DNA of 50,596 nt. Origin: Escherichia phage vB-EcoS-XT34. Under the pieces are notes generated by a model. The model did not search any database. It was not told the DNA's origin and saw only the letters and a program-made list of their open reading frames with translations. The stretch lies in sequence record OR767160. One strand, written 5' to 3'. Numbering within the stretch: the stretch's first letter is position 1; every line of letters begins with the position of its first letter. Position numbers and translations under genes: made by a program. Positions 546 to 50,107 of this stretch are shown here, in pieces.

Positions 546-574
546 TTGATAACATGTAACCACGCTGGTAGTAT
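546..574 (+). promoter_or_regulatory. candidate sigma70 early promoter (TTGATA-17-TAGTAT)
   Basis: -35 TTGATA at 546-551, 17-nt spacer, -10 TAGTAT at 569-574 preceded by TGg; sits upstream of the first + strand gene at 617. Confidence 0.45.
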
Positions 575-1138: not shown

Positions 1139-1701
1139 TGGGGATGTTTGATTTTAACGAAGAGAAGCTGACAGATGAGCAGATTATGAAGATTGCTACG
1201 GAAGATGGGCTTCCACCACTACGAGTTGCAATCAATGCTAACGGATACCGACAGTCACAAAAGTACTGGTGCGAATTAGAAGTTATGCGTCGCGCAAACC
1301 TAAATCGTGAACAATGCGTCGTGGTTGAAAAGATCTGGAAGCAAGCGATAAATGGAAAAGGCGTTGTGGGAGTTCGCTCAACATATGAGGCGATCAGAAA
1401 GGTCCAGCCGTTCGTCGAGCGTAATGGAGTAATGAATAACCTGATTGACAATATCCTACCATCACTACAGGACGCGGGAATCATTTGCCTTATTGGTGAC
1501 AAGATATATGCACACCCATACCTGGTGGGCATGTATGGGAGAGACATTCACAAGTGGTGCGACTCATGGAGATCGGTTGAGCGCAAATCTCATAGCAAAT
1601 TGCAGTCAAGCTCAGACATGATTCATGGCTATGATGCCGATGAGGTGGAGAAGGCCATCCAGTTCTACCGGAAAGCGAAATCTCTCCTGAACGGTGAATA
1701 G
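1138..1701 (+). CDS. hypothetical protein, mini-paralog of the 527-aa protein at 46425-48008
   Basis: N-terminus MFDFNEEKL..LPPLRVAINANGYRQSQ and central NGKGVVGVRSTYEA..CLIGDKIY match the N- and C-terminal ends of the 527-aa protein; stop TAG lies inside the box motif. Confidence 0.6.
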   Translation: MGMFDFNEEKLTDEQIMKIATEDGLPPLRVAINANGYRQSQKYWCELEVMRRANLNREQCVVVEKIWKQAINGKGVVGVRSTYEAIRKVQPFVERNGVMNNLIDNILPSLQDAGIICLIGDKIYAHPYLVGMYGRDIHKWCDSWRSVERKSHSKLQSSSDMIHGYDADEVEKAIQFYRKAKSLLNGE

Positions 1702-1741
1702 CACGAATTGCTAAACAACAAATCGGGTAGTCAGCTATGAT
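1699..1741 (+). promoter_or_regulatory. box element (TAGCACGAATTGCTAAA) plus -10-like TATGAT at 22 nt
   Basis: palindromic box overlapping the stop codon, fixed spacing to a -10-like hexamer, then CA-rich leader and GAGGA before the next ATG. Confidence 0.5.
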
Positions 1742-1765
1742 TACCCTATCAACAACGGAGAGGAA

Positions 1766-1978
1766 ATGATTATGGAAACTGTACGCATTGACGATGTTCA
1801 CTTTGACCAAGCAGAGGTCAGAGTAACGATGGGAACCGTTCGCGGTCACGTTATCAGTCTTGACTTCGATCCTGACGACTACGGAGATTGTCAAACGCTG
1901 ATGCAATACTCACCTGACGCGGCCCGCAAGTTAGCGGCGGCGTTAATACTGGCGGCTGACGAGGCGGAGAAGCAATGA
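1766..1978 (+). CDS. hypothetical protein
   Basis: 70-aa ORF with GAGGA RBS, downstream of box element. Confidence 0.4.
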   Translation: MIMETVRIDDVHFDQAEVRVTMGTVRGHVISLDFDPDDYGDCQTLMQYSPDAARKLAAALILAADEAEKQ

Positions 1979-2126
1979 GTAGTCACCATAATGAGCACGT
2001 AATGCAGCTATACCGACATAATCTCAAGTCACTTGGTCGGTTGGGTAAGTAAAATAACGGGCCGTTGTATGCCCATTTAGAGGCACTACGTGAGCATGAA
2101 AATGGCTCACTGCATGGAGAATCAGA

Positions 2127-2345
2127 ATGAACAATGAAGAAATGATTAAGATCCGTATTATCAAGTCTCCGTATCAGGGCGTTGATAAAAGCAAGCTGCC
2201 AGTAGTGGCGATGGCCTGGAAATATGAAGAAGGTGATGCGGGTCCGATGTACATGGTTGACGCAGATTTCATTCCGGCGCTCAGCAAGAAAGGTATGCCA
2301 CCTGGCGACTGGCCCTTTGCAGAGGATGAGGTGGAAGTTTTATGA
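2127..2345 (+). CDS. hypothetical protein
   Basis: 72-aa ORF with RBS, co-oriented in early block. Confidence 0.4.
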   Translation: MNNEEMIKIRIIKSPYQGVDKSKLPVVAMAWKYEEGDAGPMYMVDADFIPALSKKGMPPGDWPFAEDEVEVL

Positions 2346-2458
2346 AATTCTATGACGTGATTAAACTGTTCATGCCACTGTTGATGCCACTGTTGATGCT
2401 TGGATTATCATTGGCTACCCTGTTCCTGGTGATTATTTTTCTGGTGTTTGTTAAATAG
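2342..2458 (+). CDS. small hydrophobic peptide (38 aa, candidate membrane protein)
   Basis: hand-translated MKFYDVIKLFMPLLMPLLMLGLSLATLFLVIIFLVFVK; ATGA overlap with upstream stop; contains a 12-bp tandem duplication; below the ORF track size cut-off. Confidence 0.3.
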   Translation: MKFYDVIKLFMPLLMPLLMLGLSLATLFLVIIFLVFVK

Positions 2459-2498
2459 CACGAATTGTTAAACCTTCCGCAAGGCCATTTGATATAGT
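2456..2498 (+). promoter_or_regulatory. box element (TAGCACGAATTGTTAAA) plus -10-like TATAGT at 22 nt
   Basis: same architecture as the other box elements. Confidence 0.5.
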
Positions 2499-2531
2499 GG
2501 CCTTATTGAAGCAAGCAACCAATCAGAGGAT

Positions 2532-2741
2532 TTGCAGATGTTTACTGAAAAAGAGTTTGAGCAGTTTTTCCTCCTGGTCAATATGTCAGGCAGCTCGGAC
2601 CAGATGGATCGCATAAACAGCCGTCTTGAGATGCCAAAGTTCATCGAAGCGGTAGGCCGCAAGACCTGCGATCGCATGTGGCACTTAATCGAGCATTACG
2701 GCGTAACACCAGCAACACTTAAATCGGAGCACATGAAATGA
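2532..2741 (+). CDS. hypothetical protein
   Basis: 69-aa ORF with RBS AGAGGA. Confidence 0.4.
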   Translation: MQMFTEKEFEQFFLLVNMSGSSDQMDRINSRLEMPKFIEAVGRKTCDRMWHLIEHYGVTPATLKSEHMK

Positions 2742-3118
2742 AAGTACGCTTACTTAACCCGTCAATCTACTCCCTCAAACCAAACCAGAAACTTAGCGAT
2801 TGGAGCAAGGTCGCCGATCCGGAAAGTTACCCCGTAGTGGTTGAGACTGATGATATCAGCCATGAACCTAAAATCATTCAGGATGCATTCAAGGATCGCG
2901 TTCTTGTCGGTGCTAGTGAGCTGGATCGTGTTTTTAACATGGGTGGAGGTTACAAACGAAGAAGCGACACGCAGCTCGGCTGGTGGAACAATCAGAATAA
3001 CTCAAGTCGCCCACATATCCCTAGTAACTCCTGGGAGCCAGTCGGCCCGTTCGACTACTGGAACAAATTAAAGGCATCACGCGAAGTTGGCGAAACTGTA
3101 GGTAAGGGTTACTTATGA
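2738..3118 (+). CDS. hypothetical protein
   Basis: 126-aa ORF, start overlaps the upstream stop. Confidence 0.45.
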   Translation: MKVRLLNPSIYSLKPNQKLSDWSKVADPESYPVVVETDDISHEPKIIQDAFKDRVLVGASELDRVFNMGGGYKRRSDTQLGWWNNQNNSSRPHIPSNSWEPVGPFDYWNKLKASREVGETVGKGYL

Positions 3119-3294
3119 TTATTTTATGCATCGTGCTTTACATCCTGGGCGCGCTTCCGGTTTATGCAATTGCAAAAGATGTTAGCAATAGTGACAACAA
3201 GTGGTACGACATGGTAATCGTTGCCGCTATCTGGCCCCTGATCGTTGCGTTCGGAATTGTTAAAGGCGTCTACCAAAAGTTGAAGGAGCAATAA
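3115..3294 (+). CDS. small hydrophobic protein (59 aa)
   Basis: hand-translated MIILCIVLYILGALPVYAIAKDVSNSDNKWYDMVIVAAIWPLIVAFGIVKGVYQKLKEQ; ATGA overlap with upstream stop; not in the ORF track. Confidence 0.35.
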   Translation: MIILCIVLYILGALPVYAIAKDVSNSDNKWYDMVIVAAIWPLIVAFGIVKGVYQKLKEQ

Positions 3295-3296
3295 TC

Positions 3297-3515
3297 ATGC
3301 AAGTCTACACTAACAGTAAAGGCATTGAATTTTGTGCGGTCGGCGATGTGGTCCTGCGCACTGGTGGCGGATACGGGATTATTAATATCTCAGGCATTAC
3401 GCAGGATCAGTTGGTAAAGGGTATCCAGGCTGGCATCTTTACCTATCACTCATCACTGACGGCTAAGCAGTATGTCACACTTGAAACTGCAATTCGCGCC
3501 GGATTCATCGAATAG
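3297..3515 (+). CDS. hypothetical protein
   Basis: 72-aa ORF, stop TAG is the first triplet of a box element. Confidence 0.4.
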   Translation: MQVYTNSKGIEFCAVGDVVLRTGGGYGIINISGITQDQLVKGIQAGIFTYHSSLTAKQYVTLETAIRAGFIE

Positions 3516-3556
3516 CACTTTTTTGTTAAAACTTGCTCGGAGACATTAGCTATAGT
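3513..3556 (+). promoter_or_regulatory. box element variant (TAGCAC-T6-TGTTAAA) plus -10-like TATAGT
   Basis: box with a 1-nt longer core, 22 nt to TATAGT. Confidence 0.45.
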
Positions 3557-3597
3557 GTCTCCTGTCAAGTGAACACAAACCAACTGAGGAATCACAT

Positions 3598-4353
3598 ATG
3601 AACAGCATCAACCGTTATATCCCTGTGTCAGTGCCAACCAGCGTCAATATTCACGGCGTCGGAATGCAATCCTGCGACGATGGAGCATGGGTATCCTACG
3701 CAATGCATAAAAAAGAAATCGAGTCCTTACAGGCACGTTTAAAGGCCTTAGAATCGACTCAAAAACATCAAATTTCTGCACCGTCGATTATCGCTGACCA
3801 TGTTGAGCAGGCAATCAAAGAGGCTGTAGGTAAGCTGGTGCACGAAGTATGTGAGAAATTGCTCAAGGATTTGCCTAAGTACAATGGCGATCCGTGTCAC
3901 AGCACTGTCGATGCATTCGTGAATGAGCTTGCGGCTGGCCCAGGGAAAACCGTTAAGGATGACACTTGCAGCGTCGAAGATGAATTGACGAAGAACGGAA
4001 AGTTCAATTTCGGGACTAATTTTGGTGAAGGTAAGTCGCTTACAATGTCAGTAGGCGAATGCGAGTCAGCGAATGATCGCAAGGTGGCTGTTTGCTACCA
4101 TGTTAACGGAAATATGTTTATCAACGGTTGCGAGTATGAGTATGAAGCTGATGAATGTGAGCCAGGGTGTGAGCCGAGCATTATTCATATCGTACAAGAT
4201 GCATTCGTCTCTGATTTAAAAGGAGATTATCGCTGGAATGCCAGGAAGATTGGTAAGAGGATTGGTGATATTATTGAGGACAAGGCAATTCTTAACGATA
4301 CATATGCGATCATGAGTCAAGATGGCGTAGTTGCTAAATTCTACATTAAATAG
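3598..4353 (+). CDS. hypothetical protein, Cys-rich C-terminal half
   Basis: 251-aa ORF, N-terminal predicted coiled coil, several Cys pairs near the C-terminus. Confidence 0.5.
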   Translation: MNSINRYIPVSVPTSVNIHGVGMQSCDDGAWVSYAMHKKEIESLQARLKALESTQKHQISAPSIIADHVEQAIKEAVGKLVHEVCEKLLKDLPKYNGDPCHSTVDAFVNELAAGPGKTVKDDTCSVEDELTKNGKFNFGTNFGEGKSLTMSVGECESANDRKVAVCYHVNGNMFINGCEYEYEADECEPGCEPSIIHIVQDAFVSDLKGDYRWNARKIGKRIGDIIEDKAILNDTYAIMSQDGVVAKFYIK

Positions 4354-4393
4354 CACGATTTGTTAAAAGGGGATTCATCCTGACTGGTATAAT
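4351..4393 (+). promoter_or_regulatory. box element (TAGCACGATTTGTTAAA) plus TGgTATAAT
   Basis: box overlapping stop, 22 nt to an extended -10-like TGgTATAAT. Confidence 0.5.
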
Positions 4394-4424
4394 CCCCACA
4401 TCAACCACACGGAAGGAAGTCAAA

Positions 4425-5042
4425 ATGAATCAGCTTTACACTATGATTAAGCATCACCTTCAAACGGAAGCGGTAAACAAGAAAGTTTACATATTTGATT
4501 TCGATGGTACTCTGTCGGACAAAACGCACCGCCTGCACAAGCTACCGACCAAGGATTTGCACCTCACTGAGTCATGGCTTGAATTTAACTCTCTGAGCAA
4601 GTTCGATACGCCATTCCAGGAAACGATTGACGTAATGAATGGCCTGTTCGCTTCCGGCGCTTTCATCATCGTGCTTACTGGTCGATCTGATGCAGTGGTT
4701 GAGGAATCAACGCAATGGCTTCATGATGCTGGCGCTAAATACAACGTTCTTGTCATGCGCCAGGCTGATGATAACCGCAAGGATACGATCATCAAGGAAG
4801 AGTTTTTACGATACATTGGATTGCACCGCATCACCGCAGCGTGGGATGATAGTTCGAATGTTATTGCGCACTTCCGAAGCCTGGGCATCACAACCTATCA
4901 GGTGTGTGACTATGGCGACAACGCGCACTCCGGCCTTAAGTCTCACGGCGTAGAGAAAGTTTGCGAGCACGAATTTAGCGATCCGCTACCTCCGCATGGT
5001 GTTCGCCAGTGCAAAAAATGCAATCTCGTAAGCGGTAAATAA
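4425..5042 (+). CDS. HAD-superfamily phosphatase (candidate nucleotidase or polynucleotide 3-phosphatase) with C-terminal Cys cluster
   Basis: motif I FDFDGTLSD near the N-terminus; C-terminal C..C..C..CKKC suggests a zinc ribbon. Confidence 0.55.
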   Translation: MNQLYTMIKHHLQTEAVNKKVYIFDFDGTLSDKTHRLHKLPTKDLHLTESWLEFNSLSKFDTPFQETIDVMNGLFASGAFIIVLTGRSDAVVEESTQWLHDAGAKYNVLVMRQADDNRKDTIIKEEFLRYIGLHRITAAWDDSSNVIAHFRSLGITTYQVCDYGDNAHSGLKSHGVEKVCEHEFSDPLPPHGVRQCKKCNLVSGK

Positions 5043-5091
5043 AACTAAACTTAACGGGCGCACATTGCGCCCACTACTCAGGAATATCAAA

Positions 5092-5712
5092 ATGTCAAAG
5101 ATTATCATTCTCAACGGACCTGCTGGCGTAGGTAAAGACACAATCGGCAATGCACTGGCAGCAGATTACAATTGCATCCCGACCAGCTTCAAGCGTCCGA
5201 TGTTTGAGATTGCCGCATCCATCCTTGGTGCCAGGGCTTTCTCAAAGTTCATCACGGCTTATGATGACCGAGATCAGAAAGAGATGCCTCAGAGCTTCCT
5301 TGGTGGCAAGACATGCCGAGAGTTCATGATCTGGATTAGCGAGTCGGTGGTCAAGCCGCTATTTGGCAACCAGCAATTCGGAAAGCTGATGAGCGAACAT
5401 ATCCAGCTGTGCGATGAAGGATTCTGTTTTGTTTGCACTGATGGCGGTTTTCCTGATGAGGTTATCCGCCTGGTGGAAGATGGTCACGATGTTACCCTTG
5501 TCCGCCTGTTCATGGATGGCAAGACTTTCGCGGGAGATAGCCGTGATTACATCCGCATCAAGGAATCGCACTTCCCTGATTACAAGAAATATAACGAGCA
5601 TGATGTGCATCTGGTAAATGGTGATGTTGATGATGGCGTCCTTAAAGTAGTTCGCGCTTGCTTGGTTAGTCCTTCAATGGATGATGATTGGGCAGACGAT
5701 ATTCCTTGGTAA
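5092..5712 (+). CDS. P-loop kinase, dNMP kinase-like
   Basis: MSKIIILNGPAGVGKDTIG resembles the GxxGxGKDT loop of phage deoxynucleoside monophosphate kinases; start chosen at the ATG with an AGGAA RBS rather than the track start at 5065. Confidence 0.55.
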   Translation: MSKIIILNGPAGVGKDTIGNALAADYNCIPTSFKRPMFEIAASILGARAFSKFITAYDDRDQKEMPQSFLGGKTCREFMIWISESVVKPLFGNQQFGKLMSEHIQLCDEGFCFVCTDGGFPDEVIRLVEDGHDVTLVRLFMDGKTFAGDSRDYIRIKESHFPDYKKYNEHDVHLVNGDVDDGVLKVVRACLVSPSMDDDWADDIPW

Positions 5713-5713
5713 A

Positions 5714-5756
5714 TAGCACGAATTGCTAAACCCGCTCCGGCGGGTTTTGTTATAGT
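5714..5756 (+). promoter_or_regulatory. box element (TAGCACGAATTGCTAAA) plus -10-like TATAGT
   Basis: canonical box, spacer contains the GC hairpin cccgc-tccg-gcggg, 22 nt to TATAGT. Confidence 0.5.
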
Positions 5757-5785
5757 TAGTTCACACCAAACGAGAGGAAAGCAAA

Positions 5786-5944
5786 ATGATTACTATCAAC
5801 CTGTCAGACAAGCAAGCTGTCATCCTTAAGCAACTACTGGCGACTCAGACTATGCAGTGCTCAGCCGATGAGTTCTCAGAGATGGTTAAAGAGGTTCGCA
5901 CTCAGATCAACAATCAACAATTTGACGAAAACGAAGGGGAATAA
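5786..5944 (+). CDS. small hypothetical protein (52 aa)
   Basis: hand-translated ORF with AGAGGAAA RBS, fills the gap between flanking genes. Confidence 0.3.
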   Translation: MITINLSDKQAVILKQLLATQTMQCSADEFSEMVKEVRTQINNQQFDENEGE

Positions 5945-5946
5945 CC

Positions 5947-6345
5947 ATGAAATTACGTTGCACAAAGATTAATCCATGCGCATCAGAATGGTTTAAGAAA
6001 GACTTTCAGGTTGGCAAGGTGTATGAGGCAGAGCGCAGTAGTGATATCTACACAGGCACAGTAGATGTTATTGGTGGTAGTGAAGGGATTGTTTGGTGCA
6101 TTATACAGAAAGGAAGCAAATTCAACCTAAGCATCGGAAGTGGACCTGCTGTCACGTTCGAGATGGTAAAGGGTACGCGTCGCATGGTTGTAACTGAAAA
6201 GCGTGTAACTGACCTGCGGTTTGATAAGCGACGAGTTCGCCGCCTTTGCCGACAGTACGGTAAGCGACGATTCACCAAACCTGAAATTTTCAGCTTTAAA
6301 ATATGGTTGGAGTTGAAAAAGATTGCACGAAATTACCAGCGATAG
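5947..6345 (+). CDS. hypothetical protein, basic C-terminus
   Basis: 132-aa ORF; N-terminus MKLRCTK..VGKVYEAE resembles the leftward ORF at 49333-49575. Confidence 0.45.
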   Translation: MKLRCTKINPCASEWFKKDFQVGKVYEAERSSDIYTGTVDVIGGSEGIVWCIIQKGSKFNLSIGSGPAVTFEMVKGTRRMVVTEKRVTDLRFDKRRVRRLCRQYGKRRFTKPEIFSFKIWLELKKIARNYQR

Positions 6346-6385
6346 CACTTTTTGTTAAAACTCATAATCGGGGTGGCTGTATAGT
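6343..6385 (+). promoter_or_regulatory. box element (TAGCAC-TTT-TTGTTAAAA) plus TATAGT and CATCGAAACGA leader
   Basis: box overlapping stop, 22 nt to TATAGT, leader CCCATCGAAACGAACGAGGA. Confidence 0.5.
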
Positions 6386-6415
6386 TACCCCATCGAAACG
6401 AACGAGGAATCAGAA

Positions 6416-6628
6416 ATGAAAATTGAAATTATCGACGTTGACTATATCACTGATGACGACGCTCTTACTCTGGAAGATTGCGGCTTTAAAGTCGGCGACG
6501 TAATCGAAGTGTCAGGTAAATACAAGGACGGCGACCTTTCAATCCAAGCTATCCGTGAAACAGAGTTCGTGCATGTTGGCAACGAAATCAGCATTAGCGA
6601 AAATGAATATAAGGTGATCGAAGAATGA
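6416..6628 (+). CDS. hypothetical protein
   Basis: 70-aa acidic ORF with strong RBS. Confidence 0.4.
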   Translation: MKIEIIDVDYITDDDALTLEDCGFKVGDVIEVSGKYKDGDLSIQAIRETEFVHVGNEISISENEYKVIEE

Positions 6629-15148: not shown

Positions 15149-15176
15149 TTGACCGTTTAACAAAAAATGCTATTAT
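15149..15176 (+). promoter_or_regulatory. candidate strong promoter for the major capsid gene (TTGACC-16-TGcTATTAT)
   Basis: -35 TTGACC at 15149-15154, extended -10 TGcTATTAT ending at 15176. Confidence 0.5.
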
Positions 15177-25829: not shown

Positions 25830-25864
25830 GAAACTTCGATAAATCGCACGAAAGGCTAAACATC

Positions 25865-30203: not shown

Positions 30204-30424
30204 TCCTTAGAACCATAATCACGAACAGAGCCACTGGAACCTTTAATACCATCGTAGCGAATGTCAATTTCACCAGCCGCAACAACTACGCCATCTTTCC
30301 ATTTAGATACGCACACGCCGCTTGAGGACGTTGCACACCACCCATCAGGGCGAGGGCCAGAAGAACAACCAACTGTCATGATCAATGCTGCTGCGATGAT
30401 TGCCGATTTGATTAAGTTAGTCAT
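30194..30424 (-). CDS. small lipoprotein, candidate superinfection-exclusion protein (Cor/Llp-like)
   Basis: 76 aa, signal peptide with lipobox LIMTVGC-S, driven by a box-type element. Confidence 0.55.
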
Positions 30425-30464
30425 TTTGTTTTCCTTAGTAAGTATTTTTCGTTTCGATGAAGTA

Positions 30465-30508
30465 ACTATACATGCAACTATCGTCGGAGTCTTTAACTAT
30501 TCGTGCTA
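30465..30508 (-). promoter_or_regulatory. box element variant (TAGCACGAATAGTTAAA) plus TATAGT and TTCATCGAAACGA leader, leftward
   Basis: read on the minus strand upstream of the lipoprotein gene; spacing and leader match the + strand boxes. Confidence 0.45.
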
Positions 30509-30585
30509 TTGTATACACGTAACCAATGTAACTCGATGTATACAATCCCATCCGCGAGAAATGATATACGCACTGTTACGCCAAT

Positions 30586-30941: not shown

Positions 30942-31982
30942 ATGACCAAGCCACCGTTTCAATACTTCACGTCAGAAGAAATGAGCAACGACTTTTACCA
31001 CAGCAAAGATGAGTGGACATCAGAGTATGTATCAGGCTCATCACTCAGTAAGATCCATAGCACTTGTCCGGCAGCCTGGAAGTTTGAAATGAACTCGACG
31101 ACTAAGGCACTGGTCTTCGGTACGCAGTCGCATACCAACTTTGAGAGCAAAGCACTGTTTGAGCGTCAGTATCGCCGCGCACCGAAAGAAAGCGAGATTG
31201 AAAACGTGATCACTAGTCAGGCAGCATTGGCAACGAAATTAAAATCATTTGGCCTGACTGGTACAAGCGGTAAGCAATATCCAGAACTGATCAAGATGAT
31301 GGTTGATTGCGGCGAAGACCTCAACGTCATGTGGCTGATTGATATGATCGCACAATGTCAGGCGTGGGCCGATGGCGTGGAACTGGTTAAGGCGGAAGAC
31401 TACGACGCTTGCGTAAGTATGCGCCAAGTTCTTGAAATGATTCCTGAACATAACTCTTGCATGAACAGCGAGACGGCATTCCGTGAGTATTCTTTGTTCG
31501 GCGTAATCTGTGGCGTTAAAGTCAAGGTGCGACTTGACCATGTTGACATCATTAATGATCCAGAAGCCATCCGGCGCATGGGTTACGATCCTGAGATTCA
31601 CCCTGAAATCGTCGTCATCACTGATTACAAAACGACAATGAGCGCCAACCCGACCGAGTTCCCGCGCATGGCGTTCAACCTTGGATATTACCTCAAGATG
31701 GCATTGCAGCGTGACCTGTTCGTTAAATGCTTTGAGGAAACGCGACCTGTGGTTGTGCGCTTGCTGGCCCAGGAGAAGAAAGAACCTTACTTGCCTATGG
31801 CGTACCGCATGAGTAGCGATCAGCTTAAGATTGGTCGTGCGCAGTACATGAGCGTTATTCATACTTTCTCAATGTGCGAAGCGAATGACGTATGGCCTTC
31901 ATACAGCAACGGCGAACCAGAGATTGAGCTTGAGACTCCTGACTGGATTATGAAACAGTTCAAGCACATTCTGGAATCGTAG
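30942..31982 (+). CDS. recombination exonuclease (PD-(D/E)XK, RecB/lambda Exo-like)
   Basis: 346 aa, ITDYKTT motif; adjacent to Erf and SSB genes. Confidence 0.55.
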   Translation: MTKPPFQYFTSEEMSNDFYHSKDEWTSEYVSGSSLSKIHSTCPAAWKFEMNSTTKALVFGTQSHTNFESKALFERQYRRAPKESEIENVITSQAALATKLKSFGLTGTSGKQYPELIKMMVDCGEDLNVMWLIDMIAQCQAWADGVELVKAEDYDACVSMRQVLEMIPEHNSCMNSETAFREYSLFGVICGVKVKVRLDHVDIINDPEAIRRMGYDPEIHPEIVVITDYKTTMSANPTEFPRMAFNLGYYLKMALQRDLFVKCFEETRPVVVRLLAQEKKEPYLPMAYRMSSDQLKIGRAQYMSVIHTFSMCEANDVWPSYSNGEPEIELETPDWIMKQFKHILES

Positions 31983-32021
31983 CACTTTTTGCTAAACACG
32001 AACGCGGTGATTTGCTATAAT
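31980..32021 (+). promoter_or_regulatory. box element (TAGCAC-TTT-TTGCTAAA) plus TGcTATAAT
   Basis: box overlapping the exonuclease stop, 21 nt to an extended -10-like hexamer. Confidence 0.5.
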
Positions 32022-32058
32022 CACCGTAAATCAAACAAAGTAAACAAAGGTATATATA

Positions 32059-32715
32059 ATGCGTACATCAGAGAAATTTTCGAATGTTTCAGCCGCTCTA
32101 ATTGCAGCCAAAAAGCAGTTTGCCATCGCAAAAAAATCAGGCTTCAATGCTCACCTGAAAAGCCATTACTCAAACCTGACGGACGTTCTGGATGCGGTTG
32201 AGCCAGCACTAAAAGAGCATGACCTTATGGTTATCCAGTCAAATCTTGACACGTCAACAGAGAAGGTAATGCACATTGAGACACTCATCCTTCACAGCTC
32301 CGGCGAGTGGCTTGCGTTCCAGTACAATATGCCGATCGAGAAGATTAGCGCCCAGGCTTACGGCTCAACAACCTCATACGGTCGCCGTTACGCATTGTGC
32401 GCGGCGCTTGGAATCACTCAGAGCGATGACGACGCTGAAATCGCGAAGCGCACGGCAGCGGACTACAAAAAACTGATCGCCAACTGTGAAAAACTGGAAG
32501 ACCTCCAGGTGATCTATAAGAGCGCGAAAGGTTCGCTTGGCGCGGCGGAATGGAAGATTGCAGAAGACCACTTGCAGAAGCGCAAGGCTGAACTGAGTAT
32601 CGGTAACGCTCGCGGTTTCCAGCCAGCGAAAAAGGCAGATACTCAAAAGGTTGAAGGCAAGGTTGCAAATGCACCTTCCGAACCAGTACAATCTGAATCC
32701 ATCGAACAATTCTAA
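32059..32715 (+). CDS. erf: single-strand annealing protein, Erf family
   Basis: 218 aa with Erf-like N-terminal region, between exonuclease and SSB genes. Confidence 0.6.
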   Translation: MRTSEKFSNVSAALIAAKKQFAIAKKSGFNAHLKSHYSNLTDVLDAVEPALKEHDLMVIQSNLDTSTEKVMHIETLILHSSGEWLAFQYNMPIEKISAQAYGSTTSYGRRYALCAALGITQSDDDAEIAKRTAADYKKLIANCEKLEDLQVIYKSAKGSLGAAEWKIAEDHLQKRKAELSIGNARGFQPAKKADTQKVEGKVANAPSEPVQSESIEQF

Positions 32716-37078: not shown

Positions 37079-37091
37079 TTTATCACCTCAA

Positions 37092-37133
37092 TAGCATTTT
37101 TTGTTAAAAGTCATTACGATTTGATGGTAGTAT
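37092..37133 (+). promoter_or_regulatory. box element variant (TAGCA-TTTTT-TGTTAAAA) plus TGgTAGTAT, in a divergent region
   Basis: 21 nt to a -10-like TAGTAT upstream of the helicase gene; the same palindrome is 11-25 nt upstream of the divergent HTH gene start. Confidence 0.45.
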
Positions 37134-37179
37134 TGTACCAAATTAAACGCTACAAGACAATTTTTATAGGAATTTAGAT

Positions 37180-39174
37180 ATGTTGCCTATCGAGAAGCTA
37201 GTTGCAAACTTCGATAAAGAAAGAATTAAACAGATTCAGAAGGATTACCAGTTTGGAGAGATAACCCCTTACGAATTCCAGTGTGTTACATTTGATGCAA
37301 TCGGAAAGGCCATTGGGAAGTATGAAAGCCCATTCATAGCAGACCTGTCGGTTTCTGCTGGTAAAACTATCATTCTCGCCATGATCGGTAAGAGAATGGA
37401 ACAGTTAGGGCTTCCTTATATGGTGCTATCTCGCCAGTCTGAGATTGTGAGCCAGGACAGCGAAGAGCTTCGCAATTTTGGCATTCGTAATAGCGTCTAT
37501 TGCGCTGGCCTTAACGTTAAATCAGTTTATTACCCAACCATAGTTGCTAGCGAAGGAACTGCGGCTAACGGCTTATTTAAGGGGCTTGGTGACTATGTTC
37601 CTGCCGTTATAGCTATAGATGAGTGCCATATGGTCGATCACATGGATATCGTTGAAGCCGAGGAGAACGAAGAAACATTTGAGCAAATGAGCACAAAGAA
37701 AGGCGAGATGGTTTTTAAGGATGGCGTAAACACAGGATTGCTTGGCACTGGTCGTGCGCAGTACACGCTAATCATTACTGAAATGAAACGACGTTGTCGT
37801 GAGAAGTATGGTCGCGAGCTTCGTATCTTTGGGCTAACTGGCAGCCCGTATCGCAACAATGATCACATAGTGGTTAGCAATCCAAATATCCGTGGATTCT
37901 GGCGCAAAACAGTGATCCAGGTCCCAACCAATTACCTTGTTGATTTGGGATTCGTTGTTCCAACTGTTTACGGAGAGGTTGGTGATTTGGGTTACGACCT
38001 TGCGGAGTTTGCTCCGGATGGCAGCGATGGTGTGAAAGACTTCAGCAAGAAAGAGATGGATGCAATGGCTGCAAAGATTCACGAAAACCAATCAATGACT
38101 CAAAAGATTATGGGTTTTCTTGTAAAAATTCTAGAGACTCGTAACGCCGCATTGGTCACCTGCGCCGGAAAACTCCATTGTGATGAGGCCGCTGCGGCAT
38201 TGCCGGATGGATACCCTTACGCCATTATCACCGATTCTACCGGAGAGAGGAAGCGCAGAGAGATTCTTGCAGATTGCCAGACTGGAAAGTACAAGATTAT
38301 CTTTCAGATTGGATGTCTAACCACGGGCGTAAACCAACCGCTGTGGGATACTAGCGTCATACTACGCAAGATTGGCAGTCTAACCTTAATGATTCAGCTT
38401 CTTGGTCGTGGCATGCGAAAACTAAAAAAGGCGCACATAGATGCTGGGTTCAAGAAGGAGGACCACTTGGTATTAGACTTTGCCGGAGCGCTTGATGACA
38501 TGGCAGAGCTTTACTTTGACCCAATAATTGAGGAGATTCAGGCTGAGAAGTTTAAATCCTCAAGAAAAGGTGGTGATGAGGCTCGCCAGTGTCCGAAATG
38601 TGGATATGAGAATTCGCCATTTGCTAGACGCTGTAGCAATAAGATTAATGGCGTTAGATGCGATCACTTTTTCCAGTTCACAACATGTGATGATATTACC
38701 GACCAACAAACAAAGGCGGTAATCAAGAAAGGTTGTGGAACTAAAAATGACATAGCAGCAAAAGTTTGTCGCGAATGCGGGGAAATGCTTAAAGACCCAA
38801 ACGCTAACCTGACTGGAAAGATGTATCGTCGCGGAGACTATTTGCGTGTTTATGACTTCCAGGTTGGATTGAGCAAAAATCAAACTGGCATTGTAGTTAA
38901 GTACAATATCATGGCCCACAACGGAGAAAGATTTAACGCTTGGGAGTTCTTTAATCCAGAATCTGACCATCGAGTTTGTAGTGTGCTATGGAAAAACTTT
39001 TGCCTTTCTCATATTGAGAATCGCACAGAGGCAGCACGAATTGGCAAACTTCGTAACGCAAAAATGATTATGATGAACGCAGATAAATTCCGAGCTCCTG
39101 TGCAGGTGACGCATCGTCGAAATGCAAAAGGTAAGGATATAATTGCCGTGAAAAATTTTGGAGAGTTAAAATGA
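37180..39174 (+). CDS. superfamily 2 DNA helicase
   Basis: 664 aa, Walker A SAGKT, DECH box (IAIDECHMV), C-terminal Cys cluster. Confidence 0.75.
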   Translation: MLPIEKLVANFDKERIKQIQKDYQFGEITPYEFQCVTFDAIGKAIGKYESPFIADLSVSAGKTIILAMIGKRMEQLGLPYMVLSRQSEIVSQDSEELRNFGIRNSVYCAGLNVKSVYYPTIVASEGTAANGLFKGLGDYVPAVIAIDECHMVDHMDIVEAEENEETFEQMSTKKGEMVFKDGVNTGLLGTGRAQYTLIITEMKRRCREKYGRELRIFGLTGSPYRNNDHIVVSNPNIRGFWRKTVIQVPTNYLVDLGFVVPTVYGEVGDLGYDLAEFAPDGSDGVKDFSKKEMDAMAAKIHENQSMTQKIMGFLVKILETRNAALVTCAGKLHCDEAAAALPDGYPYAIITDSTGERKRREILADCQTGKYKIIFQIGCLTTGVNQPLWDTSVILRKIGSLTLMIQLLGRGMRKLKKAHIDAGFKKEDHLVLDFAGALDDMAELYFDPIIEEIQAEKFKSSRKGGDEARQCPKCGYENSPFARRCSNKINGVRCDHFFQFTTCDDITDQQTKAVIKKGCGTKNDIAAKVCRECGEMLKDPNANLTGKMYRRGDYLRVYDFQVGLSKNQTGIVVKYNIMAHNGERFNAWEFFNPESDHRVCSVLWKNFCLSHIENRTEAARIGKLRNAKMIMMNADKFRAPVQVTHRRNAKGKDIIAVKNFGELK

Positions 39175-39653: not shown

Positions 39654-40069
39654 AAATTACAGATAAAGTTGATTACATTGAGTTTTACCCGGGCCCGGTT
39701 AAGTCATGCCATAAAGAGGATGACGAACAAATCTTTTGCTCTGACTGGGTTAAGTACAACTACCCAGAGATGGTATTTTTCCACACCGTGAATGAGGGTA
39801 AGAAAACCATTGGACAAGCAAGAAAAGACCAGGCAAAGGGTTTGCTCAAGGGTGTGTCAGACTGTATTTTTTTGATACCTGAATCCGTGAGAGGGAGGCA
39901 TCCATTTGGCGCAATAGAGCTAAAGAGGGCTGGAAAAACACAAGCCAGTCCAGTCAGTGCCGAACAGAAGTCCTTCCTTAAAAGCGTAAGAGAATCAGGA
40001 GGTTTTGCGGCTGTGGCATACGGACGTGAAGGTTTTCTTGCGGCATTTAAAGAGATGATTTCAAAATAG
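39650..40069 (+). CDS. VRR-NUC domain nuclease
   Basis: 139 aa, PD-(D/E)XK-like core with D..ELK motif (DCIFLIP..GAIELKRAG). Confidence 0.6.
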   Translation: MKITDKVDYIEFYPGPVKSCHKEDDEQIFCSDWVKYNYPEMVFFHTVNEGKKTIGQARKDQAKGLLKGVSDCIFLIPESVRGRHPFGAIELKRAGKTQASPVSAEQKSFLKSVRESGGFAAVAYGREGFLAAFKEMISK

Positions 40070-40109
40070 CACGAATTGCTAAAGACGAATCTCAAGGATG
40101 AGATACTAT
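40067..40109 (+). promoter_or_regulatory. box element (TAGCACGAATTGCTAAA) plus -10-like TACTAT
   Basis: box overlapping the VRR-NUC stop, 22 nt to TACTAT, CA-rich leader. Confidence 0.45.
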
Positions 40110-40139
40110 TACCACATCAAAACGAAATGAGTAAAAGAT

Positions 40140-40643
40140 ATGAAATGGAGAAATCGAATACAATATAAAGATGGTTCACTTTACTGGCTTGAGGCGAAAG
40201 ATAAAAGCAAATCATTCAATCATCGACTTTCTGGAAAGAAAATAGGAACGGTTATGAAGGATGGTTACATGAGATTCAGGTTTAATGATAAAGCATACTC
40301 ATGCAGCAGGGTGACGTGGGAGTACTTTAATGGAGAAATTCCTATCGGAATGGAGATTGATCATATAAACCATATAAGAGATGATAACAGAATTGAAAAT
40401 TTAAGATTGGTATCAAGATCTGATAATCAAAAAAATCTAAGTATATCAAAAAACAACAAATCAGGAGTAACTGGCGTCACATACCATAAACCTTCTGGTT
40501 TATGGTCCGCCAGAATAAACTCTGGAGGAAGAAGGTTTGAGCTTGGCTACTACAAAACCATAGAAGAAGCAAGGTTGGCAAGAATTGATGCTCAAAATGA
40601 ATTTGGTTTTCATGATAATCATGGAAAGAAAATAAAAAATTAA
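40140..40643 (+). CDS. HNH homing endonuclease with AP2-like domain (copy 5)
   Basis: SRVTWEY..IDHINHIRDDNRIENLRLVS and EARLARIDAQNEFGFHDNHG. Confidence 0.75.
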   Translation: MKWRNRIQYKDGSLYWLEAKDKSKSFNHRLSGKKIGTVMKDGYMRFRFNDKAYSCSRVTWEYFNGEIPIGMEIDHINHIRDDNRIENLRLVSRSDNQKNLSISKNNKSGVTGVTYHKPSGLWSARINSGGRRFELGYYKTIEEARLARIDAQNEFGFHDNHGKKIKN

Positions 40644-41388: not shown

Positions 41389-41619
41389 ATGAATAAGAAA
41401 GTTAATTTAAATGAAGATGGTCAGTTCCTTTTATTCCGTGCACTTGTTTGCCAAAATCTCTCAGATCTTGGGTTTAAGGGTGACGCCTGGGTATTCTCTG
41501 AATCACTTGATATGTCATTTGATTGCATAAAGGATGAGGAATATCGCTACTGGAAAGACTTAATAAAAAATGATGCCTCTGACTATAAGCGAGATTGCCC
41601 AGAAGATTTCGCAGAATAG
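41389..41619 (+). CDS. hypothetical protein
   Basis: 76 aa from the internal ATG with RBS; stop TAG begins a box element. Confidence 0.4.
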   Translation: MNKKVNLNEDGQFLLFRALVCQNLSDLGFKGDAWVFSESLDMSFDCIKDEEYRYWKDLIKNDASDYKRDCPEDFAE

Positions 41620-41659
41620 CACGAATTGCTAAACATACCCGCCACCGCGCGGGTATACT
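41617..41659 (+). promoter_or_regulatory. box element (TAGCACGAATTGCTAAA) plus -10-like TATACT
   Basis: spacer of 22 nt containing GC hairpin cccgc-caccgc-gcggg. Confidence 0.5.
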
Positions 41660-41689
41660 TCTTTCATACCAACGAGACGAGGAATCATC

Positions 41690-41923
41690 ATGAAGAAGCA
41701 ACCTTTTAGCACTTACAACCAGCAGGCATACCATAAAAATATTTTACTGCCGCACCTGCTTCGCCTGGCTAATGAGTGTGCAAGTGAAGCTCTGGCGCTT
41801 GGTAAGGATGGCGGGCTTGATGAAGTGATCGCGGTGACATATCTCAAAGGCGCTTATGGTCACTTGCCTATCGCAGATTATCAAGCTATGTCATGGAGAT
41901 TTGACATTTATGGTAACTGTTGA
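41690..41923 (+). CDS. hypothetical protein
   Basis: 77-aa ORF with RBS. Confidence 0.4.
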   Translation: MKKQPFSTYNQQAYHKNILLPHLLRLANECASEALALGKDGGLDEVIAVTYLKGAYGHLPIADYQAMSWRFDIYGNC

Positions 41924-43856: not shown

Positions 43857-43900
43857 TAGCACGAATTGCCTAACACTATAGCGCCGGAAGGCGCTATATT
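43857..43900 (+). promoter_or_regulatory. box element variant (TAGCACGAATTGCCTAA) plus -10-like TATATT
   Basis: TGA-TAG double stop; spacing about 23 nt. Confidence 0.4.
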
Positions 43901-43927
43901 CATATCTCAATCACAGAGGATTCAATC

Positions 43928-44101
43928 ATGGTTAAATTATTTTGCGTTAAGAACACATCTAAAACCCTGCCTTTCACTGTTAACAATCCGTACATCGCCG
44001 AGTACCAGGGAGACGGGAGCTACAAGATTTACGGCGACGATATGACGTGGATTTTTGCGCCAATTGATGGTGCTCTGGTTGAATTTATTATCGCTGACTA
44101 G
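43928..44101 (+). CDS. small hypothetical protein (57 aa)
   Basis: hand-translated ORF with AGAGGA RBS, followed by a terminator; not in the ORF track. Confidence 0.3.
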   Translation: MVKLFCVKNTSKTLPFTVNNPYIAEYQGDGSYKIYGDDMTWIFAPIDGALVEFIIAD

Positions 44102-48079: not shown

Positions 48080-48433
48080 TTATTTATACGCCGCCTCAAA
48101 TCGGTAGGTTCCGCATAACGTTTCGAATCCGACGTCATCCGAGCGGTACAACTGCCACGCATGACCCTCGTTATCAAAAATATAGCCAGCGTTGCTTCCC
48201 AATCCAGCATGGAGAGAAACCTGGTAGCGCTTGCCTTCGGTGAAGTCTTTTTTGACGGAAGATTTGTGATTCACCTTGGTAACGTAAAGGGTTTTAGTCT
48301 TGATGTAACGGCCTTTGATATCCAGGTTGACCCACTTTCCATTGATCTTGACCTGTTCAAATCCATTCTTGCTGACGCGAGCTTTCAGTAGGCGATTGTC
48401 GGAGGTAACGAAGTTTTTAGTGGTGATTGTCAT
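48080..48433 (-). CDS. hypothetical protein
   Basis: 117-aa ORF downstream of a leftward box element with RBS. Confidence 0.45.
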   Translation of the reverse strand: MTITTKNFVTSDNRLLKARVSKNGFEQVKINGKWVNLDIKGRYIKTKTLYVTKVNHKSSVKKDFTEGKRYQVSLHAGLGSNAGYIFDNEGHAWQLYRSDDVGFETLCGTYRFEAAYK

Positions 48434-48469
48434 TTTGTTTGCCTTTTTGTGTTTCGTTTCGATGAGATC

Positions 48470-50024: not shown

Positions 50025-50061
50025 TTTTACTTCCTCTTTGTGTACTTCGTTTCGATGAAAT

Positions 50062-50104: not shown

Positions 50105-50107
50105 ATT

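What the first reader, a model, noticed from the sequence alone, without database searches (positions are those of the whole stretch)
1699..6385. Box-to-hexamer spacing is fixed at 21-22 bp, placing the palindrome centre near -42
In 14 of 16 copies a -10-like hexamer (TATAGT, TATAAT, TATACT, TATATT or similar, often preceded by TGg) lies 21-22 nt after TTGCTA. A conserved leader of the form N3-(C/T)CATCGAAACGA or CATCAACAACGA follows, then GAGGA and the ATG. TTGCTA is too far from the hexamer to act as a standard -35 (17 +/- 1 bp). If transcription starts about 7 nt after the hexamer, the palindrome is centred near -42, which is the geometry of class II activator-dependent promoters. The spacer usually also forms a GC hairpin, so an alternative reading is a terminator or RNA-processing cassette that separates each early gene.
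Basis: partly seen in the sequence, partly recalled or inferred. Interest (0 to 1): 0.8.

Follow-up and report, generated by a model that had tools for sequence, protein, structure and literature searches.

The report
Host marbox promoters in T1-like phage
The repeated box in front of this T1-like phage's early genes matches, base for base and at the same distance from the -10 element, the binding site of the E. coli stress activators MarA/SoxS/Rob, so the phage probably borrows these host proteins to switch on its genes; this would answer an open question about T1-like phages.

Summary
The window is a T1-like coliphage (Drexlerviridae, Nouzillyvirus). It carries 17 copies of the box, six inside 1699-6385. 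In 134 unique copies from T1-like phages, a -10-like hexamer lies exactly 22 nt after TTGYTA in 57% and 21-25 nt after it in 73%; shuffles give at most 1.8% at any one position. The box is the "21-nt direct repeat" already described in TLS, T1, Rtp and Rogue1, whose function was listed as open in 2024. New here: the 20-bp box ATAGCACnnWTTGYTAAAY fits the published marbox consensus AYNGCACNNWNNRYYAAAYN. The window has 6 perfect sites and 15 with at most one mismatch, against 0 and 0.8 in shuffles. The box faces forward, is centred at -40.5, and lies 18 bp from the hexamer, as at E. coli micF read here. There is no -35 hexamer, G-14 is present in 74%, and C-1/A+1 is conserved. This is the class II marbox layout. 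A variable hairpin lies between box and start site; its G·U over A·C bias points to sense RNA. The box TAG is often the upstream stop codon. The cassettes resemble T4-type PeSL cassettes. Binding by MarA/SoxS/Rob is inferred, not shown.

The parts
1698..1768 (+). Cassette 1. Marbox ATAGCACGAATTGCTAAACA at 1698-1717; its TAG (1699-1701) is the stop codon of ORF 1138-1701. Hairpin GGGTAGTCA/TGATTACCC overlaps the -10. Hexamer TATGAT at 1736-1741. ATG at 1766.
   Evidence: 0 mismatches to the marbox consensus; 18-bp gap
2455..2540 (+). Cassette 2. Marbox ATAGCACGAATTGTTAAACC at 2455-2474; its TAG is the upstream stop codon. TGaTATAGT with the hexamer at 2493-2498. Hairpin overlaps the -10. ATG at 2538.
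   Evidence: The cassette alone is conserved in P817, 50EP and T1.
3512..3600 (+). Cassette 3. Box TAGCACTTTTTTGTTAAAAC with one extra T in the centre. TATAGT at 3551-3556. Ten-bp hairpin GGAGACATTA/TAGTGTCTCC. ATG at 3598.
4350..4427 (+). Cassette 4. Marbox ATAGCACGATTTGTTAAAAG at 4350-4369. TGgTATAAT with the hexamer at 4388-4393. Hairpin GGGGATT/AATCCCC. ATG at 4425 (polynucleotide kinase gene).
5713..5788 (+). Cassette 5. Marbox ATAGCACGAATTGCTAAACC at 5713-5732. Hairpin CCCGC/GCGGG followed by a T-run; this is the only canonical terminator shape among the six. TGtTATAGT with the hexamer at 5751-5756. ATG at 5786.
6342..6418 (+). Cassette 6. Marbox ATAGCACTTTTTGTTAAAAC at 6342-6361. TATAGT at 6380-6385. 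Hairpin GGGGTGGCT/AGTTACCCC. Leader CATCGAAACGA. ATG at 6416.
31979..32061 (+). Cassette upstream of gene 32059-32715. Gap of 17 bp. TGcTATAAT.
37091..37182 (+). Cassette upstream of the helicase gene 37180-39174. It is divergent from the Cro-like regulator gene 36605-37078(-).
40066..40142 (+). Cassette upstream of the HNH-AP2 endonuclease gene 40140-40643.
41616..41692 (+). Cassette with a perfect marbox. TATACT at an 18-bp gap. ATG at 41690.
43856..43930 (+). Cassette (box variant TTGCCTA). TATATT hexamer. ATG at 43928.
50493..50577 (-). First cassette of the leftward early arm. No ORF lies upstream of it.
50022..50106 (-). Cassette with a perfect marbox. CATAAT at an 18-bp gap. Leader CATCGAAACGA.
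48431..48513 (-). Cassette. Hairpin AGCCC/GGGCT followed by a T-run. TATATT hexamer.
30422..30509 (-). Cassette upstream of the phage lipoprotein (Cor-like) gene 30194-30424.
15149..15176 (+). Near-consensus sigma-70 promoter TTGACC-N16-TGcTATTAT of the major capsid gene (ATG at 15224). Its spacer is filled by a reversed box (15154-15173 on the - strand). This is a non-activating, occluding position.
   Evidence: same arrangement in T1 and L075
35542..35561 (+). Box antisense to the tail-fibre gene. It lies at about -2 to +18 of the - strand promoter TGgTATACT.
25843..25862 (+). Perfect marbox match ATCGCACGAAAGGCTAAACA. It carries the ribosome-binding site, lies downstream of cTGTATAAT, and sits just before the tail-tip gene.
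   Evidence: TLS DR8 is the equivalent
546..574 (+). Canonical sigma-70 promoter TTGATA-N17-TGgTAGTAT. It drives the two genes (617-1701) that precede the first box.

Best explanation
Each copy is a compact regulatory cassette that joins the end of one gene to the start of the next. In 5'-to-3' order it contains five elements:
1. A 20-bp marbox (ATAGCAC-nnW-TTGYTAAAY). Its TAG often serves as the stop codon of the upstream gene.
2. An 18-bp gap that holds a hairpin of variable sequence.
3. An extended -10 element (G-14, TATAgT) with no -35 hexamer.
4. A start site at the A of CATCGAAACGA.
5. A ribosome-binding site and the ATG.

Proposed mechanism (inferred). A monomer of a host AraC-family activator (Rob, MarA or SoxS; RamA in Klebsiella) binds the marbox. 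One helix-turn-helix contacts GCAC (-47 to -44) and the other contacts YAAA (-36 to -33). The activator then recruits sigma-70 RNA polymerase as it does at class II promoters such as micF.

The hairpin acts in RNA made from upstream promoters. It attenuates read-through or protects the 3' end of that RNA. It ends before +1, so it is absent from the cassette's own transcript.

Reversed or downstream copies of the box overlap three late promoters (capsid, tail fibre, tail tip), where the same factor would repress.

The cassettes also serve as joints for gene gain and loss.

Shown: the sequence match, the geometry, the conservation and the RNA-strand bias of the hairpin. Inferred: protein binding, activation, repression, the start site and the role of the hairpin.
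For: - Spacing is fixed: 76 of 134 copies at 22 nt, against at most 1.75% per position in shuffles.
- The logo shows the box at -51 to -31, G-14 in 74%, and C-1/A+1 conserved.
- The published consensus AYNGCACNNWNNRYYAAAYN (PMC2064960, PMC3709825) finds 6 perfect sites and 15 with at most one mismatch in the window, against 0.0 and 0.8 in shuffles. In T1 it finds 21 against 0.8.
- Of the 134 copies, 18 are perfect matches and 76 have one mismatch.
[quoted passage not shown] Forward sites cluster at -41, and class II promoters lack a -35 hexamer, with a mean of 1.9 matches (PMC10268841). The RamA site at micF lies at about -41 and reads CACT-7X-AAA (PMC8811837). The phage box reads CAC(G/T)-7X-AAA and has 1.71 matches to the -35 hexamer.
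- E. coli micF read directly: marbox ACAGCACTGAATGTCAAAAC, 18 bp, TAGAAT, TSS. The gap is the same as in the phage.
- The marbox of the mar operon, ATGCCACGTTTTGCTAAATC, shares 16 of 20 bases with the phage box.
- No AraC-like protein was found in the 30 window ORFs scanned.
- The box is kept in RB43 and in a Slopekvirus (T4-like phages) while the neighbouring spacer diverged. None of the 30 of 801 gp2-homologue records that were listed was a T4-like phage.
- Hairpin: z = -2.9. G·U 20 against A·C 2 (p about 3e-4; 10 against 2 after clustering).
- Stop codon: 15 of 24 upstream ORFs end on the box TAG, and the other 9 stop within -5 to +15.
- Indel joints fall at the box or at the cassette ATG.
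Against: - No binding, footprint or start-site data exist for any T1-like phage in the library I could search.
- T1 grows fast in unstressed laboratory cells. In such cells, from general knowledge, MarA and SoxS are scarce and Rob is largely inactive. The extended -10 may therefore give substantial activator-independent activity, with the box only modulating it.
- The phage box is conserved at positions that the marbox consensus leaves free (A-48, T-40, T-39). This could reflect another binder or recent copying between cassettes.
- A phage-encoded binder of unrecognised fold is not excluded. gp2 (1138-1701), made from a canonical promoter upstream of the first box, gives weak winged-helix-like fold matches.
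- The T4-like copies lie in a small island that was probably transferred horizontally, so their retention is weak evidence for a host factor.
- The G·U bias drops to p = 0.04 when related copies are clustered.
Confidence: 0.6

Rival explanations
1. A phage-encoded activator binds the box, not a host protein. Candidates are the product of an immediate-early gene (gp2, 1138-1701) or the Cro-like regulator (36605-37078). On this view the promoters are middle promoters switched on after the first genes are expressed, as with Mu Mor or T4 MotA.
For: - The two genes before the first box are driven by a canonical sigma-70 promoter at 546-574.
- The gp2 model (pLDDT 80) gives weak tandem winged-helix-like matches (JetB/MukE, MarR-type; E >= 0.015).
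- A Cro/YdaS-like helix-turn-helix protein is encoded divergently from box 37091.
- The phage box is conserved at positions the marbox consensus leaves free.
Against: - The first promoter of the leftward early arm is itself a box promoter with no ORF upstream.
- Conservation is asymmetric, which does not fit a dimer on a palindrome.
- The box persists in RB43 and Slopekvirus, and none of the 30 of 801 gp2-homologue records that were listed was such a phage.
- The fold matches are not significant, and gp1 matches nothing.
- This view would leave a 14-of-14 match to a host consensus at the host's own spacing as coincidence.
Confidence: 0.15
2. The box needs no activator. The cassettes are extended -10 promoters that RNA polymerase uses alone. 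The box acts as an UP-like or curved-DNA element contacted by the alpha subunit. Alternatively it is kept mainly as a homology patch for recombination between cassettes (as in PeSL modular shuffling) and as a universal stop codon.
For: - G-14 is present in 74% of copies.
- A/T tracts at -52 to -50, -43 to -39 and -36 to -32 are phased by about 10 bp.
- The TLS authors suggested an UP element.
- Indels are bounded by boxes, with alignments overlapping on the box.
- T1 matches the window's early region (1-9000) only at the cassettes and one terminase-gene stretch.
- TAG is used as the stop codon.
- PeSL cassettes have the same layout.
Against: - UP elements have no conserved G/C, yet GCAC and TTG are the most conserved bases.
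- The same 20-bp sequence is kept across four Drexlerviridae genera or subfamilies and in T4-like phages. PeSL motifs, by contrast, drift between phage pairs.
- Most gene junctions without a box are also breakpoints.
- A homology patch does not explain an exact 18-bp distance to the hexamer.
Confidence: 0.17
3. The cassette is mainly an RNA element. Box plus hairpin would act as a terminator or processing site at the 3' end of each gene, and the -10-like hexamer would be incidental.
For: - The hairpins are real, and G·U pairs outnumber A·C by 20 to 2.
- The box itself can form a 5-bp stem UAGCA/UGCUA, and the C/T variation keeps G-C or G·U (read).
- Two window copies (5713 and 48513) have terminator-like T-runs.
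Against: - The hairpin position relative to the box varies by about 2-12 nt, whereas the hexamer position is fixed.
- Only 10 of 85 hairpins have a T-rich tail.
- There is no Rfam match.
- G-14, A-11, T-7 and C-1/A+1 form a complete promoter logo.
- Cassettes with no upstream ORF exist.
Confidence: 0.05

Closest known systems
Class II marbox promoters of the E. coli/Salmonella/Klebsiella mar-sox-rob(-ram) regulon, for example micF
   Same: - The 20-bp asymmetric consensus AYNGCACNNWNNRYYAAAYN.
- Forward orientation.
- Site centred at about -41, overlapping the -35 position.
- An 18-bp gap to the -10 hexamer (micF read here).
- No recognisable -35 hexamer.
- A normal -10 and start site.
   Different: - The sites are in a virulent phage, at about 15 promoters per 50-kb genome.
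- Most copies are closer to the consensus than the natural host sites.
- The site is fused to a stop codon and an RNA hairpin.
- The leader is conserved.
- Binding and activation are untested.
The '21-nt direct repeat' aaATAGCACnnnTTGnTAAAA of phage TLS, also reported in T1, Rtp and Rogue1 (PMC11447400)
   Same: It is the same element. It is intergenic, faces the direction of transcription, and lies about 76 nt upstream of start codons.
   Different: That paper left the function open (stoperator, enhancer site or UP element). It did not report the fixed distance to a -10 hexamer, the hairpin, or the marbox match.
PeSL (promoter-early stem-loop) cassettes of T4-type phages RB49/phi1, PST and nt-1 (PMC2839356, PMC4122927)
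   Same: - The order of parts: upstream stop codon, promoter, a G/C stem-loop between the upstream element and the -10 or overlapping the -10, Shine-Dalgarno sequence, ATG.
- Location among small ORFans.
- Indels bounded by cassettes.
   Different: PeSLs have a -35 hexamer at 17 bp and no marbox, and their motif drifts between phage pairs. Here the upstream element is an activator site kept across genera. Terminator activity and mini-circles have not been tested here.
Phage promoters that replace the -35 hexamer with an activator site (T4 MotA box at -30; Mu Mor site at about -43)
   Same: A -10 element combined with a conserved upstream box in place of the -35 hexamer.
   Different: Those activators are phage-encoded and mark middle genes. 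Here the best candidate is a host protein, and the box also drives the first promoter of an early arm. This comparison rests on general knowledge and was not tested.

Membership tests
Class II marbox (MarA/SoxS/Rob/RamA) promoter | 20-bp asymmetric site AYNGCACNNWNNRYYAAAYN, with recognition elements GCAC and YAAA | tested here: met
   Window: 6 perfect sites and 15 with at most one mismatch of 14 specified bases, against 0.0 and 0.8 in shuffles. T1: 21 against 0.8. Of 134 copies, 18 are perfect and 76 have one mismatch. The consensus comes from PMC2064960 and PMC3709825.
Class II marbox (MarA/SoxS/Rob/RamA) promoter | Forward orientation, overlapping the -35 position, centred near -41 | tested here: met
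   The box spans -50 to -31 (centre -40.5) and points towards the gene in every cassette that has a hexamer. The rule is taken from PMC12052159, PMC10268841 and PMC8811837.
Class II marbox (MarA/SoxS/Rob/RamA) promoter | Fixed distance from the marbox to the -10 hexamer, as at a proven class II promoter | tested here: met
   At E. coli K-12 micF the marbox is at 84-103, TAGAAT at 122-127 and the TSS at 135 of L131, giving 18 bp. In the phage the distance is 18 bp in 57% of 134 copies.
Class II marbox (MarA/SoxS/Rob/RamA) promoter | No recognisable -35 hexamer; canonical -10 and start site | tested here: met
   Mean of 1.71 matches to TTGACA at 17 bp, against 1.9 reported for Salmonella class II promoters. 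The logo shows TATAaT, G-14 and C-1/A+1.
Class II marbox (MarA/SoxS/Rob/RamA) promoter | Bound and activated by MarA, SoxS, Rob or RamA | not testable with these tools
   This needs EMSA or footprinting, in vitro transcription, and reporter assays in rob marA soxS mutants.
PeSL-type mobile promoter/stem-loop cassette | Upstream stop codon, stem-loop in a variable position near the -10, SD and ATG, located among ORFans | tested here: met
   the description of PeSLs is.
PeSL-type mobile promoter/stem-loop cassette | Sigma-70 promoter with a -35 hexamer at 17 bp | tested here: not met
   There is no -35 at 17 bp. A standard promoter scan finds no excess (15 against 15.8 expected).
PeSL-type mobile promoter/stem-loop cassette | Indels between close relatives are bounded by the cassettes | tested here: inconclusive
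   Joints fall at 1697, 2454, 2540, 3512, 4425 and 5786, with alignments overlapping on the box. However, most junctions without a box are also breakpoints.
Intrinsic terminator | G/C hairpin followed by a T-run | tested here: not met
   Only 10 of 85 hairpins have at least 5 T in the next 8 nt. The terminator scan of 1-8000 picked up one cassette hairpin.
Sigma-54 promoter | GG and GC elements spaced as TGGCAC-N5-TTGC | tested here: not met
   The box is TAGCAC-N3-TTGC: AG replaces GG and the spacing is 2 nt too short (read). The consensus is from general knowledge.
UP element | A/T-rich -40 to -60 region without conserved G/C | tested here: not met
   GCAC (-47 to -44) and TTG (-40 to -38) are among the most conserved bases.
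Operator for a dimeric regulator (true palindrome) | Symmetric conservation of both half-sites and their flanks | tested here: not met
   The left half is a fixed TAGCA while the right half is TGYTA. Both flanks carry A-tracts on the same strand.
Lrp site (yAGhAwATTwTdCTr) | 15-bp consensus | tested here: inconclusive
   By-eye match of 11-12 of 15 to the consensus quoted in PMC5554404. This explains fewer positions than the marbox and gives no spacing rule.

The most novel reading that the evidence does not exclude
T1-like phages use the host's Mar/Sox/Rob (Ram) stress activators as their master switch. About 15 consensus marboxes per genome turn on early and middle genes. Boxes placed inside the capsid, tail-fibre and tail-tip promoters hold late genes off until replicating phage DNA titrates the factor. 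On this view phage development is tied to the host state that also causes multidrug resistance. The stop-marbox-hairpin-promoter cassettes are mobile modules that move genes between phage families (Drexlerviridae and T4-like RB43/Slopekvirus).
Probability: 0.25. Interest if true: 0.9.

Novelty: new variant of a known kind. Interest (0 to 1): 0.75.

Why it matters
A 2024 re-annotation of TLS names the function of these repeats as one of the open questions about T1-like phages. How T1, one of the classic coliphages, controls transcription without its own polymerase or sigma factor is still unknown.

If the box is a working marbox, three things follow:
- A whole family of virulent enterobacterial phages, including Klebsiella phages considered for therapy, reads the host's MarA/SoxS/Rob/RamA status.
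- Salicylate, bile salts, redox stress, antibiotics, and marR or ramR resistance mutations could then change how well these phages grow.
- The phage DNA could soak up the activators that drive efflux-pump expression.

The hypothesis can be tested directly with existing strains and proteins. The cassettes also offer a compact natural part (stop, activator site, insulator hairpin, promoter, leader) for synthetic biology.

Tried and rejected
- **TTGCTA as a -35 hexamer.** Rejected. No conserved hexamer lies at 17 bp, and the real one is at 22 bp.
- **Sigma-54 promoter.** Rejected on spacing and on AG in place of GG.
- **Lrp site.** A partial match only; superseded by the marbox.
- **UP element.** Does not explain GCAC or TTG.
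- **DNA cruciform or N4-like hairpin promoter.** Disfavoured by the G·U over A·C bias and by the variable hairpin position.
- **Known RNA family.** No Rfam match in 1-8000 at E <= 1.
- **Phage AraC-type activator.** Pfam scans of 30 ORFs found no HTH_18/AraC domain. Not every ORF was scanned.
- **Structure models of gp1 and gp2.** gp1 has no fold match, and gp2 gives only weak winged-helix-like matches.
- **Literature on start sites or transcriptomes of T1-like phages.** Nothing found.
- **Pattern scan of IMG/VR.** It returned many single chance hits. Only contigs with at least two copies were used.

Full report
**What the window is.** Megablast of positions 1-8000 finds T1-like coliphages of the family Drexlerviridae. 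The closest are P817, PH1062, CJ19 and 50EP, all in the genus Nouzillyvirus. The finding covers the rightward early arm, a run of small genes of unknown function on the + strand.

**Check of the observation.** The box TAGCAC-N3-TTGYTAAA gives 30 matches at up to 3 mismatches, against 9.1 +/- 2.8 in shuffles. There are 17 good copies in the window. Six lie in 1699-6385, six more are on the + strand between 31.9 and 43.9 kb, and five are on the - strand. The bare hexamer TTGCTA is not informative.

I pooled 134 unique copies from the window, from T1 (18 copies) and from T1-like IMG/VR contigs.
- The best -10-like hexamer lies exactly 22 nt after TTGNTA in 76 copies and 21-25 nt after it in 98.
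- Shuffled controls never put more than 1.75% at any one position.

A logo anchored on the hexamer (109 copies) shows:
- the box at -51 to -31;
- G at -14 in 74% of copies, the key base of an extended -10;
- TATAaT at -12 to -7;
- a C-rich -4 to -1;
- C-1 and A+1, followed by TCGAAAC.

There is no -35 hexamer at 17 bp. The mean is 1.71 matches to TTGACA, and a standard sigma-70 scan of 1-8000 finds no excess (15 against 15.8 expected). The stated range holds six copies, not sixteen. The palindrome is imperfect and its conservation is asymmetric.

**What was already known.** The element is the "21-nt direct repeat" aaATAGCACnnnTTGnTAAAA of phage TLS. [quoted passage not shown] The authors report it also in T1, Rtp and Rogue1 (PMC11447400). 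They found only three canonical promoters in TLS. They suggested a stoperator, an enhancer site or an UP element, and they listed the function of the repeat among the open questions about T1-like phages. I found no start-site or transcriptome study of these phages.

**The box is a marbox.** Written as 20 bp, the box reads A-T-A-G-C-A-C-n-n-W-T-T-G-Y-T-A-A-A-(C/A)-n. The binding site of the E. coli activators MarA, SoxS and Rob is AYNGCACNNWNNRYYAAAYN, with recognition elements GCAC and YAAA (PMC2064960, PMC3709825).

| Scan with the published consensus | Observed | Shuffles |
|---|---|---|
| Window, perfect match (14 of 14) | 6 | 0.0 |
| Window, at most one mismatch | 15 | 0.8 |
| T1, at most one mismatch | 21 | 0.8 |

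Of the 134 pooled copies, 18 are perfect matches and 76 have a single mismatch.

For comparison I read two archetypal host sites directly from E. coli K-12. Each has one mismatch to the consensus.
- micF: ACAGCACTGAATGTCAAAAC.
- The mar operon's own site: ATGCCACGTTTTGCTAAATC. It shares 16 of 20 bases with the phage box ATAGCACTTTTTGCTAAAAC.

**Geometry.** Class II promoters of this regulon have a forward marbox that overlaps the -35 position (PMC12052159). In Salmonella the forward sites cluster at -41, and class II promoters lack a recognisable -35 hexamer, with a mean of 1.9 matches (PMC10268841). In the cryo-EM study of RamA at micF, the site lies at about -41 and reads CACT-7X-AAA (PMC8811837).

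The phage box is forward, spans -50 to -31 and reads CAC(G/T)-7X-AAA. At micF I counted 18 bp between the end of the marbox and the TAGAAT hexamer. The phage's 22 nt after TTGYTA is the same 18 bp after the marbox. Every sequence-level criterion of a class II marbox promoter is therefore met. Protein binding is the one criterion that cannot be tested here.

**Host or phage factor.**
- Pfam scans of 30 ORFs found no AraC-type domain.
- Two genes precede the first box and are driven by a canonical promoter at 546-574. I modelled both. gp1 (DUF7174) has no fold match. gp2 gives only weak winged-helix-like matches.
- The same cassette occurs in T4-like phages, with box, hairpin, TGnTATAGT and leader. 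It is present in RB43 and in a Klebsiella Slopekvirus. Between these two phages the box stayed intact while the spacer diverged.
- None of the 30 of 801 gp2-homologue records that were listed was a T4-like phage.
- In the first 50 kb of RB43 the cassettes are confined to a small ORFan island. One gene next to a box there is 46% identical to a window early gene. Horizontal transfer is therefore likely, and this argument is only moderate.
- The first promoter of the leftward early arm is itself a box promoter with no ORF upstream.

Together these points favour a host factor.

**The hairpin.** The segment from the box to +2 folds with a mean of -9.5 kcal/mol (z = -2.9). Stem sequences differ between copies. 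The 3' arm ends either at -18 to -12 or at -9 to -1, so the hairpin is never part of the cassette's own transcript.

Internal mismatches in the stems are G·T in 20 cases and A·C in 2. This gives p about 3e-4 against a composition-based expectation. After clustering related copies the counts are 10 against 2, p = 0.04. This bias is expected for a structure selected in sense-strand RNA, that is, in read-through transcripts from upstream.

Only 10 of 85 hairpins are followed by a T-rich tail, and Rfam has no match. Most are therefore attenuators or 3'-end protectors rather than textbook terminators. The hairpin position varies relative to the box, while the hexamer position does not. This ties the box to the promoter rather than to the hairpin.

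**Cassette character.** In the window and T1 together, 24 copies follow an ORF. In 15 of them the box TAG is the in-frame stop codon, and in the other 9 the stop lies within -5 to +15.

Against close relatives, several indels begin or end exactly at a box or at a cassette ATG, and the alignments overlap on the box itself (q1697-1716, q2454-2472). In the early region compared (window 1-9000), T1 matches the window only at the cassettes and at one stretch in the small-terminase gene. Most junctions without a box are also breakpoints, so the specificity of this signal is unproven.

The layout is stop codon, upstream element, G/C stem-loop between or over the promoter elements, Shine-Dalgarno sequence and ATG, set among ORFans. 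This is the layout of the PeSL cassettes of T4-type phages (PMC2839356, PMC4122927). The difference is that PeSLs have a -35 hexamer at 17 bp.

**Boxes at late promoters.** The copies that lack a hexamer at 18 bp are not random.
- **Capsid promoter.** At 15149-15176 a near-consensus promoter, TTGACC-N16-TGcTATTAT, precedes the major capsid gene. Its spacer is exactly a reversed box. T1 and another T1-like contig have the same arrangement, and TLS DR7 lies at the same place.
- **Tail-fibre promoter.** A reversed box lies just downstream of the tail-fibre promoter.
- **Tail-tip gene.** A forward variant that carries the ribosome-binding site precedes the tail-tip gene (TLS DR8).

In these positions a bound protein would hinder RNA polymerase. 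This suggests one factor that activates early and middle genes and represses late ones. Relief could come from titration as phage DNA accumulates. This part is inference.

**Verdict.** The spacing observation is correct, and the class II reading is supported and made specific. The repeat itself is known. As far as I could search, the marbox identity, the exact micF-like geometry, the RNA hairpin and the late-promoter copies have not been reported.

My confidence is about 0.9 that these are extended -10 promoters with a functional upstream site. It is about 0.6 that the site works through host MarA/SoxS/Rob-type activators.

Noticed in passing
window 15149-15176 (+), box on - strand 15154-15173: The major capsid gene has a near-consensus sigma-70 promoter, TTGACC-N16-TGcTATTAT. 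Its spacer is exactly a reversed copy of the box. The arrangement is conserved in T1 (L002, 15062) and in L075. Binding of the box factor there would occlude the promoter.
   Followed up: partly
window 35542-35561 and 25843-25862: Two more boxes sit in non-activating positions. One is antisense and lies just downstream of the tail-fibre promoter (TGgTATACT on the - strand). The other is a forward variant that contains the ribosome-binding site of the tail-tip gene, after cTGTATAAT. Both are conserved in T1.
   Followed up: partly
L129 (RB43, 340 and 1502) and L128 (Klebsiella Slopekvirus PSKm4DII, 1147 and 1502): T4-like phages carry the same cassette in a small ORFan island. In two of the copies the forward box lies 6 bp upstream of a TTGCAA/TTGCAT-N17 promoter, with a terminator hairpin in between. 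From memory this resembles the zwf arrangement. RB43 ORF014c is 46% identical to window gene 50108-50305(-).
   Followed up: partly
L128 1800-1858; L129 906-978 and 1790-1855: Canonical -35/-10 promoters in RB43 and the Slopekvirus are followed by the same leader (ACA)CATCGAAACGAA as the T1-like box promoters. The leader is therefore shared across promoter types and phage families. Its role is unknown; start-site context, RNA stability and translation are possibilities.
   Followed up: no
window 1-110: The left end carries several copies of (C)TATTGCA(A/C)(T)GA, including a palindrome-like ATAGCAATATTGCAT. They lie between the two divergent early arms. They could be sites for the Cro-like regulator or part of the packaging or terminal-repeat region.
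   Followed up: no
window 39171-39653, 40140-40643, 44946-45476(-), and 7165-7683: Three free-standing HNH_3 + AP2 endonuclease genes are present. A fourth HNH-like gene (7165-7683) was read from its sequence only. Relatives differ by the presence or absence of such genes directly behind cassettes, for example between box 4351 and the kinase gene in 50EP and BUCT-XGG-1.
   Followed up: partly
window 1138-1701: The gp2 model (pLDDT 80) gives weak tandem winged-helix-like fold matches (JetB/MukE, MarR-type). Residues 40-155 are similar to a segment next to or inside the helicase genes of many Drexlerviridae (tblastn, 2-3 places per genome).
   Followed up: partly
L002 (T1) position 119, - strand: T1 has a box copy near its left end with no -10 hexamer and no gene behind it, inside the annotated 2.8-kb repeat region.
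   Followed up: no
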